The notes under the pieces: model-generated
What the model was told of the DNA's origin: nothing
The model's database searches: none
The model's input: only the letters and a program-made list of their open reading frames with translations
Position numbers and translations under genes: made by a program
Part shown: positions 15,368 to 36,917 of the stretch, one piece after another
How positions within the stretch are numbered: the stretch's first letter is position 1
How the letters are laid out: every line of letters begins with the position of its first letter
Source: a phage
Sequence record: OZ503098.1
Reading direction: 5' to 3' (one strand)
Length of the DNA: 44,954 bases

Positions 15368-17638
15368 ATGACCATGAGTTTAATTAAATTCGCAGTAACA
15401 AGACCCGCTAAAAAAGGCGAAAAAGCCAGGGCGGAAAACTTCCAGATGACCACCGATGAATTTTTCGAATTTATCAAAGATGCGAAAGAAATCTCCTCGG
15501 TGCATATCAATAAGACGGAAGATAAAGCCGAGTATGCGCGCCGCAAGCGTAAGGCCGATGGCATCGTGGCATATACCAGTGACGGCCTTCGCCGCAAGAC
15601 CAGTGCGGTGGACCGCTCGATCCTGTTCTTCGATATTGACCGTACCGACACCCGCACCCTACGCCGCTGCCGTAAGGCGTTCATTGACGCGGGTCTGGAA
15701 CACGTATTTCACACCACAACCGGCGACCGTCACCCACTGAAAGGAGGCACGCGTTGCGCCCGTTTCCTGGTGTTAACTGACAAGCCTGTACCGGCTGAAG
15801 ACCTGGGCCGCGTCCAGTATGCACTATTACACCAACTGGGTCTGTCAGATGTGGACTTCGACGATTGCACGAAAGACACAAACCGCCTGATGTACCTGCC
15901 TCACCAGCAGTCTGTTATTAAGTGCCACTACGGCAAGCGCGCCCGCGTCCGCCGTCTGCTCCGCCTGGCTGATAAGCTGGGAGTTGAGAAAGAGGAAGTA
16001 CGCCGCGAGCTTACCCAGGGCGACGACGCAGTGGCAGACGGCATTCTGGACTGGTGCTTCCAGGCAGGATTCGAGGAGTTATCTTCCGGGCGGGGCTTTG
16101 AAGTGCCGTGCCCGAACGAACATCTGCACAGCGGCGAAGGGTCGACGGCTATCATGGTCAAGGATGGCGAGATCCGTTTCAAGTGTATGCACACCGGCAA
16201 CGAGTGTTGCTCTGAACTGAATAGACACCAACACCTGGCGCTACGTCTTATCGGCATCCCGGACCACCTGAACGTCGAGCCACACAATATGTCCCGTAAG
16301 CAAATCGCCGCCATCCTTCCGGGGCTGGACGACGAGGAAGTCGAATCCTTATATGAACATATTGTTGATGCGGTTGGCGACGGCGAAGAATACGGCGTGT
16401 GCACCGATGCGGATCTGGATAACGAGCCGGTCGCGCTGTTCAGTAAGCACGACACGATTATCGAGGGGTTGATTAACTTTAAATCGACCTGGTACATGGC
16501 GGGTGAGTCGAATATCGGTAAGTCTTTCTATGTGCTGGGCCAAATGGGCGCGGTTGCCGCCGGTATTCCGTTTGGTGGTGCGAAGGTCGTCCAGTCTCAT
16601 TGCTTCTATTTCGACGCGGAAGGTGGCGAAGCCTCCAACCAGCGTAAAGAAGCATTGCAGATTAAATACGAGCACGACCTGGACAAGCTGCACATTATAG
16701 ACCTGCAGTCACGCGGCTGGGATATCACCAGCAAGTCCGGCTTGCGCGAAGTTATCAGTTTTATCAACCGCACCGCTAACGGCGAGCCGGTTGGCCTGGT
16801 GGCGTTCGACTCACTCAACCAGACTGTTGCGTTGCGGTCCGCCGAGGCTAAACCGTTCGACGAGAACAACGCCAGCGATATGGGCGAAGTGGTCAAAGCG
16901 CTGAAGGCCATCGCGGAAAACACAGGTGGCAGTGCGGGCGTCATTCACCACCCGGCGAAAGGTGCAAACGGCAGCAGAACCCCACGCGGGTCCGGCGCGC
17001 TGCATGGTGCTGTCGATTCCGCTTTCTTCCTGGAACAGCCGGACGACAACCAGCCCGGACAATTGAACCTGTATCACGAAAAGTCACGTAACGGCATCAA
17101 GCAAGCGCCGCGCGGCTTCGTCCTGCTCAAGTGCAAAGTTAAGGTGGATCTCCGCAAGTCAGAAGCGTTCGAGGCGCACCAGTCCACCAGCACCGGGCCA
17201 GACTTCGGGGATGTGGTTGCCGGTTGGGACGTCAAGCCGATCGCCTCCACGCCACGCGACGAGACTCTCTACCTCGTACCGGTTGCCCTGGCACCGTTCG
17301 CTATTGAACAGGCGAAGGCGGCAGGCAAGGCCGCGGTTAAGGAAGAGAACACCGCCGGACCGCGCAACGGAAAAGAGAAAGTGCTTTATGCTGCACTGGA
17401 AAAACTGATGGAAGATAACCCGGACCATACTGGATTCAGTAAATCGGCGATTGTCCGCCAGGCGGGACTCGCGAAAGGTGGCACGTCGACGAAGGCAATC
17501 GACGATATGGTGGAGCGCGGCGTGATAGGTTTTTACACCGATCCGCACACCGGGGCCATCTATGGGTCGTCTAATTTGGTCATCAAATCGGATATCCCAA
17601 TCACGCTTTCAGCGACCGATGAAGACTTAAAAGATTAA
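15368..17638 (+). CDS. Primase-helicase: archaeo-eukaryotic-type primase-like N-terminal domain fused to a RecA-like P-loop NTPase
   Basis: N-terminal LFFDIDRTD (acidic DxD-type motif), central Cys/His cluster (CPNEHLHSGEG...CMHTGNECC), C-terminal Walker A GESNIGKS and Walker B-like LVAFDSL. Confidence 0.7.
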   Translation: MTMSLIKFAVTRPAKKGEKARAENFQMTTDEFFEFIKDAKEISSVHINKTEDKAEYARRKRKADGIVAYTSDGLRRKTSAVDRSILFFDIDRTDTRTLRRCRKAFIDAGLEHVFHTTTGDRHPLKGGTRCARFLVLTDKPVPAEDLGRVQYALLHQLGLSDVDFDDCTKDTNRLMYLPHQQSVIKCHYGKRARVRRLLRLADKLGVEKEEVRRELTQGDDAVADGILDWCFQAGFEELSSGRGFEVPCPNEHLHSGEGSTAIMVKDGEIRFKCMHTGNECCSELNRHQHLALRLIGIPDHLNVEPHNMSRKQIAAILPGLDDEEVESLYEHIVDAVGDGEEYGVCTDADLDNEPVALFSKHDTIIEGLINFKSTWYMAGESNIGKSFYVLGQMGAVAAGIPFGGAKVVQSHCFYFDAEGGEASNQRKEALQIKYEHDLDKLHIIDLQSRGWDITSKSGLREVISFINRTANGEPVGLVAFDSLNQTVALRSAEAKPFDENNASDMGEVVKALKAIAENTGGSAGVIHHPAKGANGSRTPRGSGALHGAVDSAFFLEQPDDNQPGQLNLYHEKSRNGIKQAPRGFVLLKCKVKVDLRKSEAFEAHQSTSTGPDFGDVVAGWDVKPIASTPRDETLYLVPVALAPFAIEQAKAAGKAAVKEENTAGPRNGKEKVLYAALEKLMEDNPDHTGFSKSAIVRQAGLAKGGTSTKAIDDMVERGVIGFYTDPHTGAIYGSSNLVIKSDIPITLSATDEDLKD

Positions 17639-17719: not shown

Positions 17720-17905
17720 TATGCAATAAAACTGCATAAACTAAGCGGGACAAAAAGCGGGACAGACAGGAGGCGGGACAAAGCGGGACAGCACCCCTGT
17801 CCCGCCCCGGATGACGCGGCCTGGCGAGGAGCGGGACAGCGGGACAGCACCCCAGTCTTTCAGACTAGACGGGGGGTCTGGCACCCCCCTCGTCTGAGAC
17901 TGCAT
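17720..17905. repeat. Iteron/hairpin array 1: at least six direct GCGGGACA copies, inverted TGTCCCGC copies and a G6/C6 hairpin, preceded by TGCATAAA
   Basis: GCGGGACA at 17745, 17757, 17773, 17783, 17831, 17839; inverted copy at 17798; AGTCTTTCAGACT palindrome and GACGGGGGG-tctggca-CCCCCCTCGTC hairpin at 17853-17895. Non-coding (the TTG-start ORF 17642..17998 is rejected). Confidence 0.7.
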
Positions 17906-32380: not shown

Positions 32381-32441
32381 TTTGGCGCAATTCTGCGCGT
32401 GCTGTATCATTAAACCGTATATCTAAACAGGAGCGTTCATT

Positions 32442-33158
32442 ATGGGTTATCAACTTCCTAACGGGTCTAGCGTCCAGATTGGGTCCGTACTGGGTAAAGG
32501 CGTCGCGGTCACGGCAGCAACCAACGCCGTCGCGTCAATCTCTGACAAAACGAAAGGTTGCGTTATCACCTGCGCGGCTTCTCATGGCCTGGTAGTTGGC
32601 GACGTGGTGATGTTCACCAAATCTCCGTGGGTCCGTGCACTTAACCGCGCGTTCATCGTGGGTAAAGTGGAGCCTAACAGCGTTACGCTGGCGGGCTTCG
32701 ACTCCTCCGATGTTACCAAATACCCTTCCGGTGCTTTCAGCACTGGCACTCCGGGCGAAGTGGTTAAGGTGTCGGGCTTTATTGACTTCCCGTACATCAC
32801 TAACGTTGCCGTGTCTGGCGGCGACCAGCAGACGACTACCTTCCAGCCGCTGCAGTTGAACACCGCGATCAGCATTAACACCACGAAAAATCCGTGGGTG
32901 CAGACTTTTACCTTCACCCATGACGTGGAAGACCCGATCCGCCCTGTCCTGGAAGACCTGGACGACACACAGAAAACCACTGTAATCCAGTTCACTAACC
33001 CCGCGGCAGCAGGCGGCAAAGGTGAGGTGCGCATTTACCCAGCTAAGGTATCTTTCCAGAAGATTCCATCCGCTGAAGTAAATAACGTGGAGACGGTGCA
33101 AGTGACTTTGACCATGCAGGCGGATATGGTCATCTACCTCAAAAGTTTGGGCGCTTAA
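32442..33158 (+). CDS. Major tail (tube) protein
   Basis: 238-aa Gly/Val/Thr-rich protein upstream of the G/GT chaperone genes, followed by a strong terminator. Confidence 0.6.
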   Translation: MGYQLPNGSSVQIGSVLGKGVAVTAATNAVASISDKTKGCVITCAASHGLVVGDVVMFTKSPWVRALNRAFIVGKVEPNSVTLAGFDSSDVTKYPSGAFSTGTPGEVVKVSGFIDFPYITNVAVSGGDQQTTTFQPLQLNTAISINTTKNPWVQTFTFTHDVEDPIRPVLEDLDDTQKTTVIQFTNPAAAGGKGEVRIYPAKVSFQKIPSAEVNNVETVQVTLTMQADMVIYLKSLGA

Positions 33159-33175
33159 ATAGCAGGTGATAATAT

Positions 33176-33198
33176 GGGGCCAGACGGCCCCTTTTTTA
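33176..33198 (+). terminator. Rho-independent terminator after the major tail protein gene
   Basis: GGGGCC-agac-GGCCCC followed by TTTTTT. Confidence 0.6.
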
Positions 33199-33213
33199 TT
33201 GGAGAATACCACA

Positions 33214-33576
33214 ATGGCTAAAGCACCACTCTTTACACTTGACCCTAAGCCTACCTTTAAGCTGCCGATTGAGATCCCGCGCCCTGGTGAGAACGAACCG
33301 GGCAAAATGACGTTTACCGTACGCCACCGCCCGATCGACGAATTTTCGCAGACCATGCAGGATACTGAGCGCAAGTTGTCGGAGTATGACGACAATGACC
33401 CTGACGGCTTTAACGTTATGGTCGAGGCCATAATGCACGTCGCTGAAGGCTGGAATCTGCCGGACGAATTTAACGCGGAGAACGTCCGCCGCCTGGTGGT
33501 CAACTACCCGCGCGCGTTCGGCGTGTTCCACACGTCGTACTATCTCGAACTGATGGGGCTGCGTGAAAAAAACTAA
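33214..33576 (+). CDS. Tail assembly chaperone (lambda gpG-like), zero-frame product
   Basis: ATG 33214 with GGAGAA RBS; 120 aa acidic protein between the major tail and tape measure genes; ends at a slippery heptamer. Confidence 0.6.
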   Translation: MAKAPLFTLDPKPTFKLPIEIPRPGENEPGKMTFTVRHRPIDEFSQTMQDTERKLSEYDDNDPDGFNVMVEAIMHVAEGWNLPDEFNAENVRRLVVNYPRAFGVFHTSYYLELMGLREKN

Positions 33577-33890
33577 TTGAGGCGGCGCGACGCTTTTATG
33601 GCCCGCCGCCACCCTCCGAAGATTTAGCCGCAAGTTTATGGGGTGCGGCCCCCGAAGATGTTTGCCCGCCGGTTGCACTATGGCCCGACAATGCGAAGGT
33701 AGTCGCAGTCTTCACGGATTGCGCCACGCAATGGCGTACCGGATTCGGTGGCGCATACGGCATCGACTACGGCGTACTGGAATGGTTATTTAATATGCAC
33801 GGCATCGAAAACGCGCAACGTGCGTTTAAAGATATCAAGCTAATGGAACGCGTTGCGCTGGATGAAATGGCGCGGCAGAACCCCGCATAA
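33214..33890 (+). CDS. Tail assembly chaperone frameshift fusion product (gpGT-like) made by -1 frameshifting at 33567-33573
   Basis: The -1 frame is open from the slippery site A_AAA_AAC (33567-33573) to TAA 33888-33890, 107 codons translated by hand with no stop; canonical arrangement upstream of tape measure genes. Confidence 0.5.
33567..33573 (+). other. Slippery heptanucleotide A_AAA_AAC for programmed -1 ribosomal frameshifting
   Basis: Codons GAA AAA AAC TAA in the zero frame; a -1 shift gives AAA AAA CTA ATT GAG and onward. Confidence 0.5.
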
Positions 33891-34215
33891 CGGAGCGGGA
33901 CAGGCGGGACGTCCCGTTTTGTCCCGCACCTCTAAAACTGCATATTTACTCACCACAATTGCATAAATCAAAAGCGGGACAGGGGTGCTGTCCCGATCTG
34001 TCCCGCCCCCAAAATGTGAATGTCTATTCAGTTTTATTGCATAAAGTAAGCGGGACAAAAAGCGGGACAGAATGAGGCGGGACAAAGCGGGACAGCACCC
34101 CTATCCCCGCCAGTGCTGCCGCGGGTTTTAGCCGATCGGGACAGGCGGGACAAAGCCCAGTCTTTCAGACTAGACGGGGGTCAATGGCCCCCCTCGTCTG
34201 AGACTGAATAAGGTT
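33891..34215. repeat. Iteron/hairpin array 2 (expanded copy of array 1) inserted between the chaperone and tape measure genes
   Basis: GCGGGACA/TGTCCCGC copies at 33895, 33904, 33926, 33975, 33991, 34002, 34051, 34063, 34079, 34089 and 34153 (approximate); block 34048-34107 nearly identical to 17742-17802; hairpin block 34157-34215 nearly identical to 17850-17905; TGCATAA words at 33939, 33960, 34038, 34251. Confidence 0.7.
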
Positions 34216-34274
34216 TGTTTTAAATTCGCTGATACAATGACCGACGGCAACTGCATAAAAAGGGGGACTGCATA

Positions 34275-36917
34275 ATGGCAGATCAGGCAGCGGGCATCAC
34301 GCTCAAGGCGGACGTCGCGCAAATTAAAACGGCTAATACTGTGCTGGACACATTTGCGCAGAAATCCGAGAACACAGAACAGAAAGTCAAAAAATTAAAC
34401 GACACCCTCGGCAAGTCGAAAAAGGTCACGGGTGACGCCGCTGGCGGAATGGAAAAGTTAGCGACTGAATCTCAGCGTGCCGCCGACGGCATGACGAAAC
34501 AGGAGCGACTCGCCAGCCGATTAGGCATGTCGACCAAAAACCTGGGATTCGCATCGCGGAACGCCGCATTCCAGTTACAGGATATCGCGGTTACGCTTGA
34601 GATGGGTATGCCGGTGCACCGCGTCATGCTTCAGCAGCTACCACAGCTAACCGGCGCATTTGGCGGACTGGGTAACACGCTGCGTTATGTTGCAGGCTTC
34701 CTCGGCCCAGTAGGGATCGGACTTGCTGCCGTAACGGCGACGTTAGGCGTGGGCGTGGCAATTACGTCACGGGCAGAGAACCAGGTAGCCGCGCTTAATA
34801 AGACGCTGGCGCTGTCCGGTAATATCTCCGGCCTCACAGCTAACCAGATCCTGGTGCTGTCCGAGAACGCCGAGCGCATGGGCGGGTCTTTTCGCAAGAC
34901 GCGTGACACAATCCAGGCACTGGCGGCGGCTGGTGTGAAAGCGGGTGGTGACTTCGGCGCATTGGCTAAGGTAGTTAATGACTTTGCGAAGGTGTCCAGC
35001 CAGCCGATCGAGGATGTGGTGGCGGCGGTGGCTAAGCTGTCAACCGACCCCGTTGGCGGACTGCGTGCGCTGGCGGATAAGTATCACGTCGTAAACGAAG
35101 CGCAGATCCAGCAGGTACAGTCGCTCGTTGATGCGGGTCGTGAGACAGACGCAGTTGCGTTGGCTAACAAAACAGCCGCTGCGTCGTTCACCAGCATGAC
35201 CAATGAAATCAAGTCCAACATGGGTACGCTTGAGCGGTCGATGAACGTCGTCACATCGGCAGCTAAATCTATGTGGGATGCCATCCTGGATGTGGGCCGC
35301 GCGCAGTCCTCGAATGAGTCAGAGATGAAAGCGCGTGAGTCATTGCAGCGCATGACCACGGCTTATTATGCCGAGATGAAAGCGGTAAACGCTGCCGGTG
35401 GGGTAATGACTGAAGCGCAGAAAGCACGTATTAACATGCTTTACAGCGAACTGGTCGCCCAGGAAAAAGTGGTGGCATCGCTCACCCTGCGTAACCGTGC
35501 TGAGCGAGACAACGCCCGCGCCGCAGACGAATCCGCAAAGGCGAACGAGGAGGCCAACCGCACTGCCCGTGACCGCGCCGCGTTCGAGAAGGAATACGCC
35601 ACCAACGCTAAGAAACGCGCCGACGAGATCGCCCGTCTCAATTTGCTGAATAAGCGCGGCGTTATCGACGAGAAAGAGCTTGCCGAGGCGGTGAAGCAGG
35701 TAAACGAGCGGTACAAAGACCCCGCCCCGAAGAAGGCCGCGGCTGTTCGCGTGGACGCCGGTATGAAAATGCTGGAAGTTGCACGGAGCGAACTGGCCCA
35801 GCTTCGAGAATCCGGCAAGCAGATCGAAGCCAACGCGTCTACGCAGACCCGCACGCAACGCGCTCAAGCGGCCTTAAACAAGCTGATCGCCGACAATGAG
35901 CAGTTAATCGCTGCGAGCAAAGAAAGAGCGCTAACGGCAGCAGAAAAGCAGCAGATGGTCGAATTCGGACGCGTGAAGGAAGTGCGCGAGCAGATCGTCG
36001 AAGAAGCCAAATTGCTGGACGCGAAAGAGAAGCAGGTTAAGGCGCACGCGCAGATCGATGCCTTCGTTAAGAACCAGAACGCCGAACTAAAAGCCACCGC
36101 CGCGGGGTATGCGCTTTCCACTCGCGAAGCGGCAAACCTGCGCGAAGAATTGCAGCTAATTGACCGCCTGAAGCGGGTTGGCGCTAACGATACCGATATT
36201 GACAAGGCGGTGTCTAAGCTGCGAGAAGTGCAGGAAGCACAGACCGGCGCTAACGCCTCGTTATGGGATGGATTCAGTCGCGGGCTTAAAGATAGCGTGG
36301 ATGAAATGGGTAACGGATATACGCAGATGGCGTCGCTCACGAAATTCACATTCAGCGCTATGCAAGACACGATGAACGAGTTTTTCGAGACTGGCAAGCT
36401 GAACGCAAAGGATATGGTTAAATCCATCCTGAGCGAACTAATCAAGCTGGCTACCTCGCAGGCGTTCAAGTCCATCGTTAGCGCTTTCGGTGGCGACGGC
36501 GGCAAAAACGGATTGTTCGGCGCTATATTCTCTGGCCTCACTAAGAATGCGGACGGCGGAGCGTACGCAGGAGGCAATCTCGCGGCCTATTCGGGGAAAG
36601 TCGTAAGCCAGCCTACCTTTTTCAGTTATGGCGTCCAGGCGTTCGCTAAGGGCGCGGGGTTGATGGGGGAGGCGGGACCCGAGGCCATCATGCCACTGAA
36701 GCGCGGGCCAGACGGAAAACTGGGCGTTGCCGCGTCTGGCGCAGGCGGTGGTATGGTCGTGACGACTAACGTTTACACGGGGACCGGTAAAACGGATACC
36801 AGTGTCAGCGGGCCGGATCCCCGTACCGCGCAGGCGTTCGGCAAGCAAATCACCGAGGCGGTGAAGGCCGAGATCGTGAAGGCGACGAAACCGGGTGGTG
36901 TACTTTACAAACGATGA
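34275..36917 (+). CDS. Tail tape measure protein
   Basis: 880-aa ORF with AGGGGGA RBS; long helical, Ala/Gln/Lys/Glu-rich middle and Gly-rich C-terminus; position after G/GT. Confidence 0.8.
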   Translation: MADQAAGITLKADVAQIKTANTVLDTFAQKSENTEQKVKKLNDTLGKSKKVTGDAAGGMEKLATESQRAADGMTKQERLASRLGMSTKNLGFASRNAAFQLQDIAVTLEMGMPVHRVMLQQLPQLTGAFGGLGNTLRYVAGFLGPVGIGLAAVTATLGVGVAITSRAENQVAALNKTLALSGNISGLTANQILVLSENAERMGGSFRKTRDTIQALAAAGVKAGGDFGALAKVVNDFAKVSSQPIEDVVAAVAKLSTDPVGGLRALADKYHVVNEAQIQQVQSLVDAGRETDAVALANKTAAASFTSMTNEIKSNMGTLERSMNVVTSAAKSMWDAILDVGRAQSSNESEMKARESLQRMTTAYYAEMKAVNAAGGVMTEAQKARINMLYSELVAQEKVVASLTLRNRAERDNARAADESAKANEEANRTARDRAAFEKEYATNAKKRADEIARLNLLNKRGVIDEKELAEAVKQVNERYKDPAPKKAAAVRVDAGMKMLEVARSELAQLRESGKQIEANASTQTRTQRAQAALNKLIADNEQLIAASKERALTAAEKQQMVEFGRVKEVREQIVEEAKLLDAKEKQVKAHAQIDAFVKNQNAELKATAAGYALSTREAANLREELQLIDRLKRVGANDTDIDKAVSKLREVQEAQTGANASLWDGFSRGLKDSVDEMGNGYTQMASLTKFTFSAMQDTMNEFFETGKLNAKDMVKSILSELIKLATSQAFKSIVSAFGGDGGKNGLFGAIFSGLTKNADGGAYAGGNLAAYSGKVVSQPTFFSYGVQAFAKGAGLMGEAGPEAIMPLKRGPDGKLGVAASGAGGGMVVTTNVYTGTGKTDTSVSGPDPRTAQAFGKQITEAVKAEIVKATKPGGVLYKR

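What the first reader, a model, noticed from the sequence alone, without database searches (positions are those of the whole stretch)
33567..33890. Programmed -1 frameshift (A_AAA_AAC) producing a G-T-like tail chaperone fusion
The chaperone ORF ends at a classical slippery heptamer and the -1 frame stays open for 107 further codons up to the start of iteron array 2. This is the conserved mechanism for making the tape-measure chaperone pair. Here the extension runs into the iteron array instead of abutting the tape measure gene.
Basis: partly seen in the sequence, partly recalled or inferred. Interest (0 to 1): 0.5.

Follow-up and report, generated by a model that had tools for sequence, protein, structure and literature searches.

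The report
Tail chaperone G/GT programmed −1 frameshift
This is the ordinary, widely conserved ribosomal frameshift that phages with long tails use to make a small amount of an extended tail-assembly chaperone. It is present and under selection here, but it is not a new kind of thing.

Summary
The window is a Dhillonvirus-type E. coli siphophage. A 120-aa tail assembly chaperone gene (33214-33576, Pfam Phage_TAC_4) lies between the tail tube and tape measure genes. It ends in GAA AAA AAC TAA, so A_AAA_AAC (33567-33573) is followed directly by the stop. The -1 frame is closed by TGA just before the heptamer. It then runs open to 33890, adds 105 residues (Pfam DUF1799) and has no start codon for 75 codons. 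In 18 close relatives, substitutions fall on codon position 3 of the G frame upstream and of the -1 frame downstream. A_AAA_AAC plus stop is invariant in 77 distinct junctions down to about 30% protein identity. These include T1-like phages, where the joined product is annotated. A GC-rich hairpin starts 7 nt downstream (33581-33610); its synonymous sites are frozen, and three clades keep a hairpin with the same boundaries. Most likely this is low-efficiency -1 ribosomal frameshifting that makes G and a minor G-T fusion. One unusual point also holds: a 384-nt repeat-filled gap separates T from the tape measure gene. In most relatives examined the two genes overlap or abut. Novelty and interest are low.

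The parts
32442..33158 (+). Tail tube (major tail) protein gene, the upstream neighbour of the chaperone gene
   Evidence: PF08813 Phage_tail_3 E=1e-33; phrog_584 major tail protein
33176..33199 (+). Intrinsic-terminator-like hairpin plus T-run between the tail tube gene and G
   Evidence: GGGGCCAGACGGCCCC TTTTTTAT. A terminator is annotated at the same place in phages Stevie and HK639.
33214..33576 (+). Gene G: 120-aa tail assembly (tape measure) chaperone, the zero-frame product, ending ...LMGLREKN*
33564..33566 (+). TGA stop in the -1 frame immediately 5' of the heptamer. It closes the T frame upstream.
   Evidence: Read from the sequence. 'Upstream open 1 codon' in all Dhillonvirus loci.
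33567..33573 (+). Slippery heptamer A_AAA_AAC (P-site AAA Lys, A-site AAC Asn)
   Evidence: Invariant in 77 distinct junction sequences from about 150 loci.
33574..33576 (+). Zero-frame stop TAA directly 3' of the heptamer. Together with the -1 frame TGA it confines the shift to a 10-nt window.
   Evidence: The stop is always TAA or TGA at this position in the relatives.
33581..33610 (+). Candidate stimulatory stem-loop: GGCGGCG / CGCCGCC outer stem plus an inner stem, with a 7-nt spacer after the heptamer
   Evidence: MFE structure. Invariant runs 33562-33587 and 33591-33610. Only 1 of 12 third-codon positions varies, P=4.5e-5, or 0.0096 after correction for 211 windows. Helix 8-11/34-37 is paired in 92.5% of cells with GC/CG/UA types. 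Per-clade RNAalifold recovers a hairpin spanning positions 8 to 37 in 3 clades.
33570..33890 (+). T extension in the -1 frame: 105 new residues, LIEAARRFYGPPPP...DEMARQNPA, then TAA at 33888-33890. No start codon before ATG 33795.
   Evidence: PF08809 DUF1799 E=6e-21, residues 23-99 covering profile positions 1-80 of 80; phrog_680, and phrog_17368 matches both halves. Variable sites by codon position in the -1 frame are 22/9/68. tblastn places T in the -1 frame in all relatives.
33891..34274 (.). 384-nt non-coding gap between the T stop and the tape measure start. It holds 9 GCGGGACA copies in both orientations, TGCATAA motifs and a hairpin at 34173-34199.
   Evidence: Part of it (34034-34210) duplicates 17720-17905.
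34275..36917 (+). Tape measure protein gene (880 aa), the downstream neighbour
   Evidence: PF06791 TMP_2 E=3e-43, PF09718 Tape_meas_lam_C E=5e-14, phrog_24

Best explanation
Genes G and T encode the phage's pair of tail assembly (tape measure) chaperones.

Most ribosomes translate G (33214-33573) and terminate at TAA 33574, giving the 120-aa chaperone. A small fraction slip back one nucleotide on A_AAA_AAC (33567-33573): tRNA-Lys moves AAA to AAA and tRNA-Asn moves AAC to AAA. These ribosomes continue in the -1 frame to 33890 and make a 225-aa G-T fusion (...LREKN-LIEAARR...).

Three features probably set the rate:
- a heptamer of low efficiency in E. coli;
- the stop codon directly 3' of it;
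- in this lineage, a GC-rich stem-loop beginning 7 nt downstream.

By analogy with lambda gpG/gpGT, the G part would bind the tape measure protein, and the T part would recruit the tail tube protein, at a fixed low GT:G ratio.

Shown here: the sequence anatomy, the protein families, selection on the -1 frame, and conservation of the motif and of the hairpin region.

Inferred: that slippage occurs, that it is ribosomal, its efficiency, the role of the hairpin and the stop, and the binding partners.
For: 1. Anatomy. The shift is confined to 33567-33576 by a -1 frame TGA and a zero-frame TAA. The T frame has no start codon for 75 codons.
2. Gene order is tail tube, G, T, tape measure, with PF08813, PF08748, PF08809 and PF06791. 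phrog_17368 spans both G and T.
3. Selection. In 18 Dhillonvirus sequences the variable sites by codon position are 10/6/77 in G, and 22/9/68 in T when T is read in the -1 frame.
4. T lies in the -1 frame relative to G in 120 of 123 loci where both parts were found. A_AAA_AAC followed by TAA or TGA is invariant in 77 distinct junctions covering Dhillonvirus, HK639-like phages, Enterobacter and Serratia prophages and T1-like phages.
5. The homologous Stevie locus is annotated as a joined CDS and described as a conserved translational frameshift (PMC4319613).
6. A_AAA_AAC (the IS1 A6C motif) is a proven low-efficiency -1 site in E. coli (PMC4066793, PMC12428005). The low level fits the roughly 30:1 G:GT ratio needed in lambda (PMC5009743).
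7. Hairpin. The spacer is 7 nt, within the 5-9 nt norm (PMC5009743). Synonymous variation is suppressed over 33562-33610. There is covariation between clades. A per-clade consensus hairpin spans positions 8 to 37 in three clades.
8. The predicted G fold matches TAC-fold proteins (PMC9603447).
Against: - No direct measurement exists: there are no protein or reporter data for this phage.
- The hairpin's folding energy is not unusual against dinucleotide shuffles (z=+0.3 and -0.1).
- RNAalifold finds no consensus structure across the whole family. The L017-like clade lacks a convincing hairpin, so the structure is not universal.
- The between-clade covariation rests on few independent events and lies inside coding sequence.
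- A_AAA_AAC is much less shift-prone in E. coli than A_AAA_AAG (PMC5009743).
- No fused G-T protein is present among 5.8 billion database proteins. This reflects gene calling rather than biology.
Confidence: 0.88

Rival explanations
1. Transcriptional slippage. RNA polymerase adds one extra A in the A7 run (33566-33572). A fraction of mRNAs then encode an in-frame G-T fusion with junction ...REKK-LIEAARR..., and the ribosome never changes frame.
For: The site is a homopolymer of 7 A. Assemblies of relatives show length variants of the run. A8 gives an in-frame fusion in L061-L063. Shorter runs are seen in L128, L138, L144 and L156 and in P0003 and P0015. So the run is length-unstable, at least in sequencing data.
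Against: - In the T1-like and Serratia clades the run is only A6 (GTA AAA AAC, GGA AAA AAC). What stays invariant is the in-frame heptamer with its final C and the adjacent stop, and neither matters for polymerase slippage.
- The conserved structure lies downstream with a 7-nt spacer, as for ribosomal stimulators. Stem-loop-stimulated transcriptional slippage uses a structure 5' of the run (my recollection of Penno et al. 2015, which is cited in PMC5009743).
- Efficient slippage in E. coli generally needs runs of about 9 or more (my recollection of Baranov et al. 2005).
- Several of the variant contigs carry other frameshifts, which points to sequencing error.
Confidence: 0.06
2. Stop-codon-dependent single-tRNA slippage ('shifty stop'). 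The shift happens one step later: tRNA-Asn sits in the P site on A_AAC, the slowly decoded TAA is in the A site, and only the P-site tRNA slips. The protein product is identical to that of classical tandem slippage.
For: The stop codon lies directly after the heptamer in every one of 77 distinct junctions, as TAA or TGA. Nothing obvious forces G to end exactly there. Stop codons 3' of slippery runs are known to promote frameshifting (Weiss et al. 1987 'shifty stops', cited in PMC5009743).
Against: - The full heptamer, including the first A of the preceding codon (GAA, GTA or GGA, always ending in A), is conserved. Only tandem slippage requires that base.
- The hairpin spacing of 7 nt from the heptamer fits tandem slippage.
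- This is a variant of the main explanation rather than an alternative function.
Confidence: 0.05
3. T is a separate gene translated from its own start, or a decaying remnant, and no fusion protein is made.
For: Gene callers and GenBank records list separate products. These include 139-aa 'DUF1799 domain-containing proteins' that start inside G in relatives whose -1 frame is open further upstream, and 31-42-aa 'hypothetical proteins' in Dhillonvirus records.
Against: - In this window the -1 frame is closed by TGA at 33564-66 and has no ATG, GTG or TTG until 33795. An independent product would be 31 aa and would lack most of the domain.
- The upstream extensions of the 139-aa calls are out-of-frame translation of G and have no counterpart in the window's T sequence.
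- Third-position-biased substitution over the whole 105 codons rules out a remnant.
Confidence: 0.01

Closest known systems
Phage lambda gpG / gpGT tail assembly chaperones (Levin et al. 1993; Xu, Hendrix & Duda 2004, 2013, 2014; reviewed in PMC5009743)
   Same: - Two overlapping ORFs between the major tail and tape measure genes.
[quoted passage not shown]
- A low shift level is expected.
   Different: - The slippery site is A_AAA_AAC, not G_GGA_AAG, and the stop is directly adjacent.
- The proteins fall in PF08748 and PF08809. No other Pfam family was hit at E<=0.1; I recall lambda G and T as PF06894 and PF06223.
- A candidate downstream hairpin is present.
- T is separated from the tape measure gene by 384 nt of repeats.
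T1-like (Drexlerviridae) tape measure chaperone pair, e.g. Citrobacter phage Stevie CPT_Stevie15/16 (KM236241; PMC4319613); also proposed for Rogue1 gp30/31 (PMC3496638)
   Same: - A homologous T domain, 34% identity.
- The same heptamer and adjacent stop: GTA AAA AAC TAA.
- A hairpin starting 7 nt downstream.
- The joined CDS is annotated.
- A terminator between the tail tube gene and G.
   Different: - The codon before the heptamer is GTA rather than GAA, so the run is A6 rather than A7.
- The stem sequence differs: GGCGGUU/AACCGCC.
- In Stevie, T is followed after 37 nt by the tape measure gene, with no repeat array.
IS1 insA-insB' A6C frameshift (Sekine & Ohtsubo 1989; Escoubas et al. 1991; PMC4066793, PMC12428005)
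   Same: The identical heptamer A_AAA_AAC, working in E. coli as a low-efficiency -1 site that fuses an upstream ORF to a -1 ORF lacking its own start.
   Different: - The proteins are unrelated: a transposase, not a chaperone.
- No established stimulator is reported for IS1 (PMC4066793).
E. coli dnaX gamma/tau frameshift
   Same: A -1 shift on an A-rich heptamer in E. coli with a downstream stem-loop a few nucleotides away.
   Different: - dnaX uses the highly efficient A_AAA_AAG plus an upstream Shine-Dalgarno-like element, and the shift shortens the product.
- Here the site is the weaker A_AAA_AAC and the product is extended.
- The upstream GGG(G) at 33555-58 is not conserved as a Shine-Dalgarno-like element.

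Membership tests
Conserved G/GT tail assembly chaperone frameshift of long-tailed phages (Xu et al. 2004) | Two ORFs located between the major tail protein gene and the tape measure gene | tested here: met
   PF08813 at 32442-33158, G, T, then PF06791/PF09718 at 34275-36917
Conserved G/GT tail assembly chaperone frameshift of long-tailed phages (Xu et al. 2004) | The second ORF is in the -1 frame, overlaps the end of the first at a slippery sequence, and has no plausible independent start | tested here: met
   A_AAA_AAC at 33567-73. The -1 frame is closed by TGA at 33564-66. The first start codon in the frame is at 33795.
Conserved G/GT tail assembly chaperone frameshift of long-tailed phages (Xu et al. 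2004) | Frame relationship and slippery site conserved among relatives despite sequence divergence | tested here: met
   120 of 123 loci have T in the -1 frame. The heptamer plus stop is invariant in 77 distinct junctions. Codon-phase substitution is 22/9/68 in the -1 frame.
Conserved G/GT tail assembly chaperone frameshift of long-tailed phages (Xu et al. 2004) | A fusion protein is actually made at a few percent of G and is required for tail assembly | not testable with these tools
   Needs proteomics, reporter assays or genetics
Tail assembly chaperone fold (HK97 gp13 2OB9, YqbN 3KLU, Rbstp2171 3FGX; Pell et al. 2013) | The G domain adopts the TAC fold | tested here: met
Pfam Phage_TAC_4 (PF08748) + DUF1799 (PF08809) chaperone pair | Scores above the gathering thresholds for both domains, in the order G then T | tested here: met
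   83.9 bits against a cut-off of 21.1, and 74.9 bits against 26
Lambda gpG / gpT sequence families (recalled as PF06894 / PF06223) | Sequence match to the lambda G or T Pfam models | tested here: not met
   hmmscan at E<=0.1 returned only PF08748 and PF08809. The relationship to lambda is one of function and gene order, not of detectable sequence homology.
Canonical bacterial -1 PRF cassette (heptamer + 5-9 nt spacer + 3' structure) | X_XXY_YYZ heptamer in the zero frame | tested here: met
   A_AAA_AAC in phase
Canonical bacterial -1 PRF cassette (heptamer + 5-9 nt spacer + 3' structure) | A conserved stimulatory structure 5-9 nt downstream | tested here: inconclusive
   For:
- A hairpin at 33581-33610 with a 7-nt spacer.
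- Frozen synonymous sites.
- Covariation between clades.
- A per-clade consensus in 3 clades.

Against:
- The energy is not unusual against shuffles.
- There is no family-wide RNAalifold consensus.
- The hairpin is absent in the L017-like clade.
Canonical bacterial -1 PRF cassette (heptamer + 5-9 nt spacer + 3' structure) | An upstream Shine-Dalgarno-like stimulator, as in dnaX | tested here: inconclusive
   GGGG at 33555-58 lies 8 nt upstream, but 33558 is a variable third position. Only the GG of a conserved Gly codon plus the G of ATG is constant.

The most novel reading that the evidence does not exclude
The recoding signal of this whole chaperone family (PF08748/PF08809: Dhillonvirus, T1-like and HK639-like phages, and many enterobacterial prophages) may be a fixed three-part cassette: A_AAA_AAC, an obligatory adjacent stop codon, and in most clades a hairpin spanning +8 to +37. 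In this reading the stop codon is a working part of the mechanism (a 'shifty stop' with release-factor competition that sets the G:GT ratio) and not merely the end of G. In Dhillonviruses the cassette has also been uncoupled from the tape measure gene by insertion of a lineage-specific repeat module.
Probability: 0.3. Interest if true: 0.35.

Novelty: new member of a known kind. Interest (0 to 1): 0.15.

Why it matters
The main value is for annotation. In the three Dhillonvirus GenBank/RefSeq records whose feature tables I read, the 225-aa fusion is not annotated. The T region is either left blank or represented by a 31-42-aa 'hypothetical protein'. That fragment even has its own PHROG family, phrog_14875. 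No fused product was found among 5.8 billion database proteins.

The locus is also a clean natural test case. Two stop codons restrict the frame change to ten nucleotides, so the site of slippage is not in doubt. The family offers a comparative series for asking what a neighbouring stop codon and a hairpin add to a weak heptamer in E. coli: A6 versus A7 runs, and clades with and without the hairpin.

Biologically it is the expected way for a siphophage to set its chaperone ratio.

Tried and rejected
- Rfam scan of 33100-34400 at E<=1. It returned only sub-threshold miRNA-type hits caused by the inverted repeats in the gap, and no known frameshift element.
- Folding energy against shuffles for the downstream region. 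It was not significant, so the case for the hairpin rests on comparative data only.
- RNAalifold on all 77 junctions predicted no pairs. The per-clade runs were informative.
- NCBIfam gave no hit for G, T or the fusion. A PDB sequence search with the fusion gave nothing significant.
G and T were run separately. The T model is poor (pLDDT 64, from 5 sequences) and was not used for fold searching.
- The first protein search with the fusion gave only 2 hits. The profile search gave 43, all G-only or T-only.
- A literature search for the GCGGGACA repeat returned only unrelated primer sequences. A search for Dhillonvirus plus frameshift found nothing whose title or abstract concerned this locus.
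- The upstream Shine-Dalgarno-like element was considered and left as inconclusive.
- Independent translation of T and a 'dead remnant' were considered and rejected.
- In-frame A8 variants (L061-L063) and shorter-run variants were considered as natural fusions. They are treated as probable homopolymer sequencing errors because several of those contigs carry further frameshifts.

Full report
**What the window is.** Megablast of 32400-34400 finds 159 phage records, 149 of them covering at least 80% of the query at 80-93% identity. Nearly all are Escherichia or Shigella siphophages of the genus Dhillonvirus, such as phiEco273, SSL-2009a, JL1 and YD-2008.s, with genomes of about 44-45 kb. The 44,954-base window therefore looks like a whole genome of this type.

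**The observation.** Reading the sequence gives the following.
- The + strand ORF starts at ATG 33214, preceded by GGAG at 33201-04.
- It ends ...CTG CGT GAA AAA AAC TAA. The heptamer A_AAA_AAC is 33567-33573 and the zero-frame stop is 33574-33576.
- In the -1 frame the codon just before the heptamer is TGA (33564-66).
- From AAA (33570-72) the -1 frame stays open to TAA at 33888-33890. That adds 105 residues (LIEAARRFYGPPPPSEDL...DEMARQNPA).
- The first ATG, GTG or TTG in that frame is ATG 33795, so the ORF listing reports no ORF there at 40 aa or more.
- A ribosome can reach the T frame only by changing frame inside the 10 nt 33567-33576, which are exactly the heptamer plus the stop.

Its '107 further codons' corresponds to 106 sense codons plus the stop.

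**Chance.** Neither element is unusual alone.
- AAAAAAC occurs 4 times in the window against 8.4 expected.
- A 106-codon open stretch has a probability of about 0.026 from stop density.
- 14 of 88 ORF ends have at least that much open -1 frame, because neighbouring genes overlap.

The case rests on the evidence below, not on motif and ORF length.

**What the two ORFs encode.**
- G (120 aa) matches Pfam Phage_TAC_4 over its full length (E=1.4e-23).
- The -1 extension matches DUF1799 (E=6e-21), with profile positions 1-80 of 80 covered by residues 23-99.
- The upstream gene is a tail tube protein (PF08813). The downstream 880-aa gene is a tape measure protein (PF06791 plus PF09718).
- In PHROGs, phrog_17368 (213 positions) matches G with positions 1-107 and T with positions 150-212. 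That family was therefore built from fused proteins.
- phrog_14875 (38 positions, 'unknown function') matches only the last 37 residues of T. It is the fragment a gene caller obtains from ATG 33795.
- An AlphaFold2 model of G is confident (pLDDT 87.8).
- Against predicted viral structures, G matches 'tape measure chaperone' proteins (TM 0.77-0.85 for most named hits). Two hits are longer proteins of 236 aa (Serratia phage Scapp) and 210 aa (Klebsiella phage Solomon), sizes consistent with G-T fusions.
- The T model is poor (pLDDT 64) and I did not use it.

**Selection on the -1 frame.** I aligned 18 distinct Dhillonvirus sequences.
- Across G, variable sites by codon position are 10/6/77 in the G frame.
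- Across T they are 22/9/68 when read in the -1 frame, and 9/68/22 in the G frame.
- The periodicity changes register at the heptamer, so T is a translated, constrained protein segment.

**Conservation of the signal.** I collected about 150 loci. Sources were viral contigs, one genome per species, assemblies that encode two 58%-identical G proteins, and annotated phages.
- T lies in the -1 frame relative to G in 120 of the 123 loci where both parts were found.
- Three exceptions (L061-L063) have an A8 run that puts T in frame. The 4th (L064) has the normal junction and a later indel.
- Four T1-like contigs have one A fewer. At least two of these carry further frameshifts.
- I treat these homopolymer variants as probable sequencing errors, but I cannot prove it.
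- Among 77 distinct junction sequences, A_AAA_AAC and an immediately following TAA or TGA are invariant. The preceding codon is GAA, GTA or GGA, always ending in A.
- The set spans Dhillonviruses, 58%-identity relatives, HK639-like phages, Enterobacter, Leclercia and Serratia prophages, and T1-like Drexlerviridae. Protein identity to the window falls to about 30-40%.
- AAA, AAC and the last base of the preceding codon are all synonymous sites, and none ever changes.

**Prior knowledge of the homologous sites.**
- Citrobacter phage Stevie, a T1-like phage with 34% T identity, carries a two-piece joined CDS 'tape measure chaperone' over exactly this junction. [quoted passage not shown]
- The Rogue1 paper proposed a G-T-type fusion for gp30/31 (PMC3496638).
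- The three Dhillonvirus records I read do not annotate the fusion: Pandora71, SSL-2009a RefSeq and phiEco273.
- Protein searches of 5.8 billion sequences returned only G-only proteins ('tape measure chaperone', 'phage tail assembly chaperone') and T-only calls ('DUF1799 domain-containing protein'), apart from two metagenomic proteins (P0003, P0015) whose frames are joined by a shortened A-run.
- The 139-aa T-only calls start inside G in the -1 frame. That N-terminal stretch has no counterpart in the window's T sequence.

**The downstream hairpin.**
- Seven nucleotides after the heptamer begins GGCGGCG...CGCCGCC (33581-33587 pairing with 33604-33610), with a short inner stem.
- The 50-nt window has an MFE of -17.1 kcal/mol, against a mean of -11 and a minimum of -16.6 for control windows across G and T. 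This was computed on L001, whose first 50 nt after the heptamer are identical to the window's.
- Against dinucleotide shuffles the energy is not unusual (z=+0.3).

The comparative evidence is stronger.
- The two longest invariant runs in the whole G-T alignment are 33562-33587 and 33591-33610.
- Only 1 of 12 consecutive third-codon positions (33575-33608) varies, against 145 of 222 overall. That gives P=4.5e-5, or 0.0096 after multiplying by 211 windows.
- All five wobble positions inside the 7-bp stem are G, each paired with C.
- Across the family the outer helix (downstream positions 8-11 with 34-37) is paired in 92.5% of cells.
- Pair 11:34 occurs as G-C (28 sequences), C-G (25) and U-A (22), with 2 unpaired. 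Position 11 is a wobble base.
- The covariation score is 0.35-0.38, against at most 0.20 for slid controls and 0 of 500 shuffles reaching it.
- RNAalifold run per clade recovers a hairpin spanning positions 8 to 37 in the Dhillonvirus, T1-like and HK639-like clades.
- It finds nothing convincing in the L017-like clade, and no consensus when all clades are pooled.

I conclude that a stem-loop with a 7-nt spacer is probably a stimulator in this lineage. The spacing lies within the usual 5-9 nt (PMC5009743). The structure is not a universal requirement of the family.

**Mechanism.** A_AAA_AAC is the A6C motif of IS1, a proven low-efficiency -1 site in E. coli (PMC4066793, PMC12428005). It is much less shift-prone than A_AAA_AAG in E. 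coli (PMC5009743). A weak site suits a system that in lambda needs about 30 G per GT (PMC5009743).
- Most likely, tandem slippage of tRNA-Lys and tRNA-Asn yields ...LREKN-LIEAARR....
- The invariant adjacent stop suggests an additional 'shifty stop' contribution. That would give the same product.
- Transcriptional slippage on the A7 run would give ...REKK-LIEAARR.... It fits poorly with three observations: the A6 runs in two clades, the conserved final C and stop, and a structure placed downstream.
- Independent translation of T is excluded here by the TGA and the lack of a start codon.

**The gap before the tape measure gene.**
- In about 66 of 72 other distinct relatives with a tape-measure start called, the T stop overlaps or abuts the tape measure start (-4 to +4 nt). 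The gap is 36 nt in the Serratia clade and 37 nt in Stevie.
- In the window and 16 other Dhillonvirus sequences the gap is 346-406 nt.
- It holds 11-14 CGGGAC cores in those sequences. In the window there are 9 GCGGGACA copies, out of 20 in the whole window against 2.0 expected.
- Nothing links the array to the frameshift mechanism. It does mean that tape measure translation cannot be coupled to T termination in this lineage.

**Verdict.** This is a real, conserved, correctly interpreted G/GT-type programmed -1 frameshift. It belongs to a known kind, and its homologues in T1-like phages are already annotated. Interest is low. The useful by-products are an annotation fix for Dhillonvirus genomes and a tidy comparative series for weak-heptamer frameshifting in E. 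coli.

Noticed in passing
window 33891-34274 and 17720-17905: A module of about 180 nt is present twice. It consists of TGCATAAA motifs, 4-5 GCGGGACA repeats, and a hairpin CAGTCTTTCAGACTAGACGGGGG...CCCCCCTCGTCTGAGACTG. One copy lies between T and the tape measure gene. The other lies just after a 756-aa ORF (15368-17638) with an AAA_25 domain, which I take to be a helicase-type domain. GCGGGACA occurs 20 times in the window against 2.0 expected. In most Dhillonvirus records the 2-kb query matched a second place in the genome.
   Followed up: partly
L025 3196-3385 and L023 3199-3221: Two 58%-identity relatives of G carry different repeats directly after T: GGGTGCCA six times in L025, and CCGGCAAC twice in the 23 nt of L023 before its contig ends. 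Both contigs stop there. This suggests lineage-specific repeat arrays at the same position, and assembly breaks at them.
   Followed up: no
window 33795-33890: The 31-aa ORF from the first ATG in the T frame is what several GenBank records call a 'hypothetical protein'. Examples are SSL-2009a AV954_gp18 and Pandora71 ECPH3_29, which is a slightly longer call. It also corresponds to phrog_14875. It is an artefact of missing the frameshift.
   Followed up: yes
L061-L063 (about 1819-1830); L128, L138, L144, L156 (about 900-910); proteins P0003, P0015: Public contigs and proteins of relatives show length variants of the A-run. A8 gives an in-frame G-T fusion, and a run one A shorter than the usual A6 of that clade breaks the pattern. 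They are probably homopolymer sequencing errors, since some contigs have other frameshifts. Genuine variants cannot be excluded.
   Followed up: partly
window 33176-33199: A strong intrinsic-terminator-like hairpin with a T-run lies between the tail tube gene and G. A terminator is annotated at the same place in phages Stevie and HK639. It probably attenuates transcription so that much more tail tube protein than chaperone is made.
   Followed up: partly
window 33976-34107: A long imperfect inverted repeat (32-nt arms, 91% complementary, 68 nt apart) is built from the GCGGGACA repeats. It produces sub-threshold miRNA-type Rfam hits, which are spurious.
   Followed up: no
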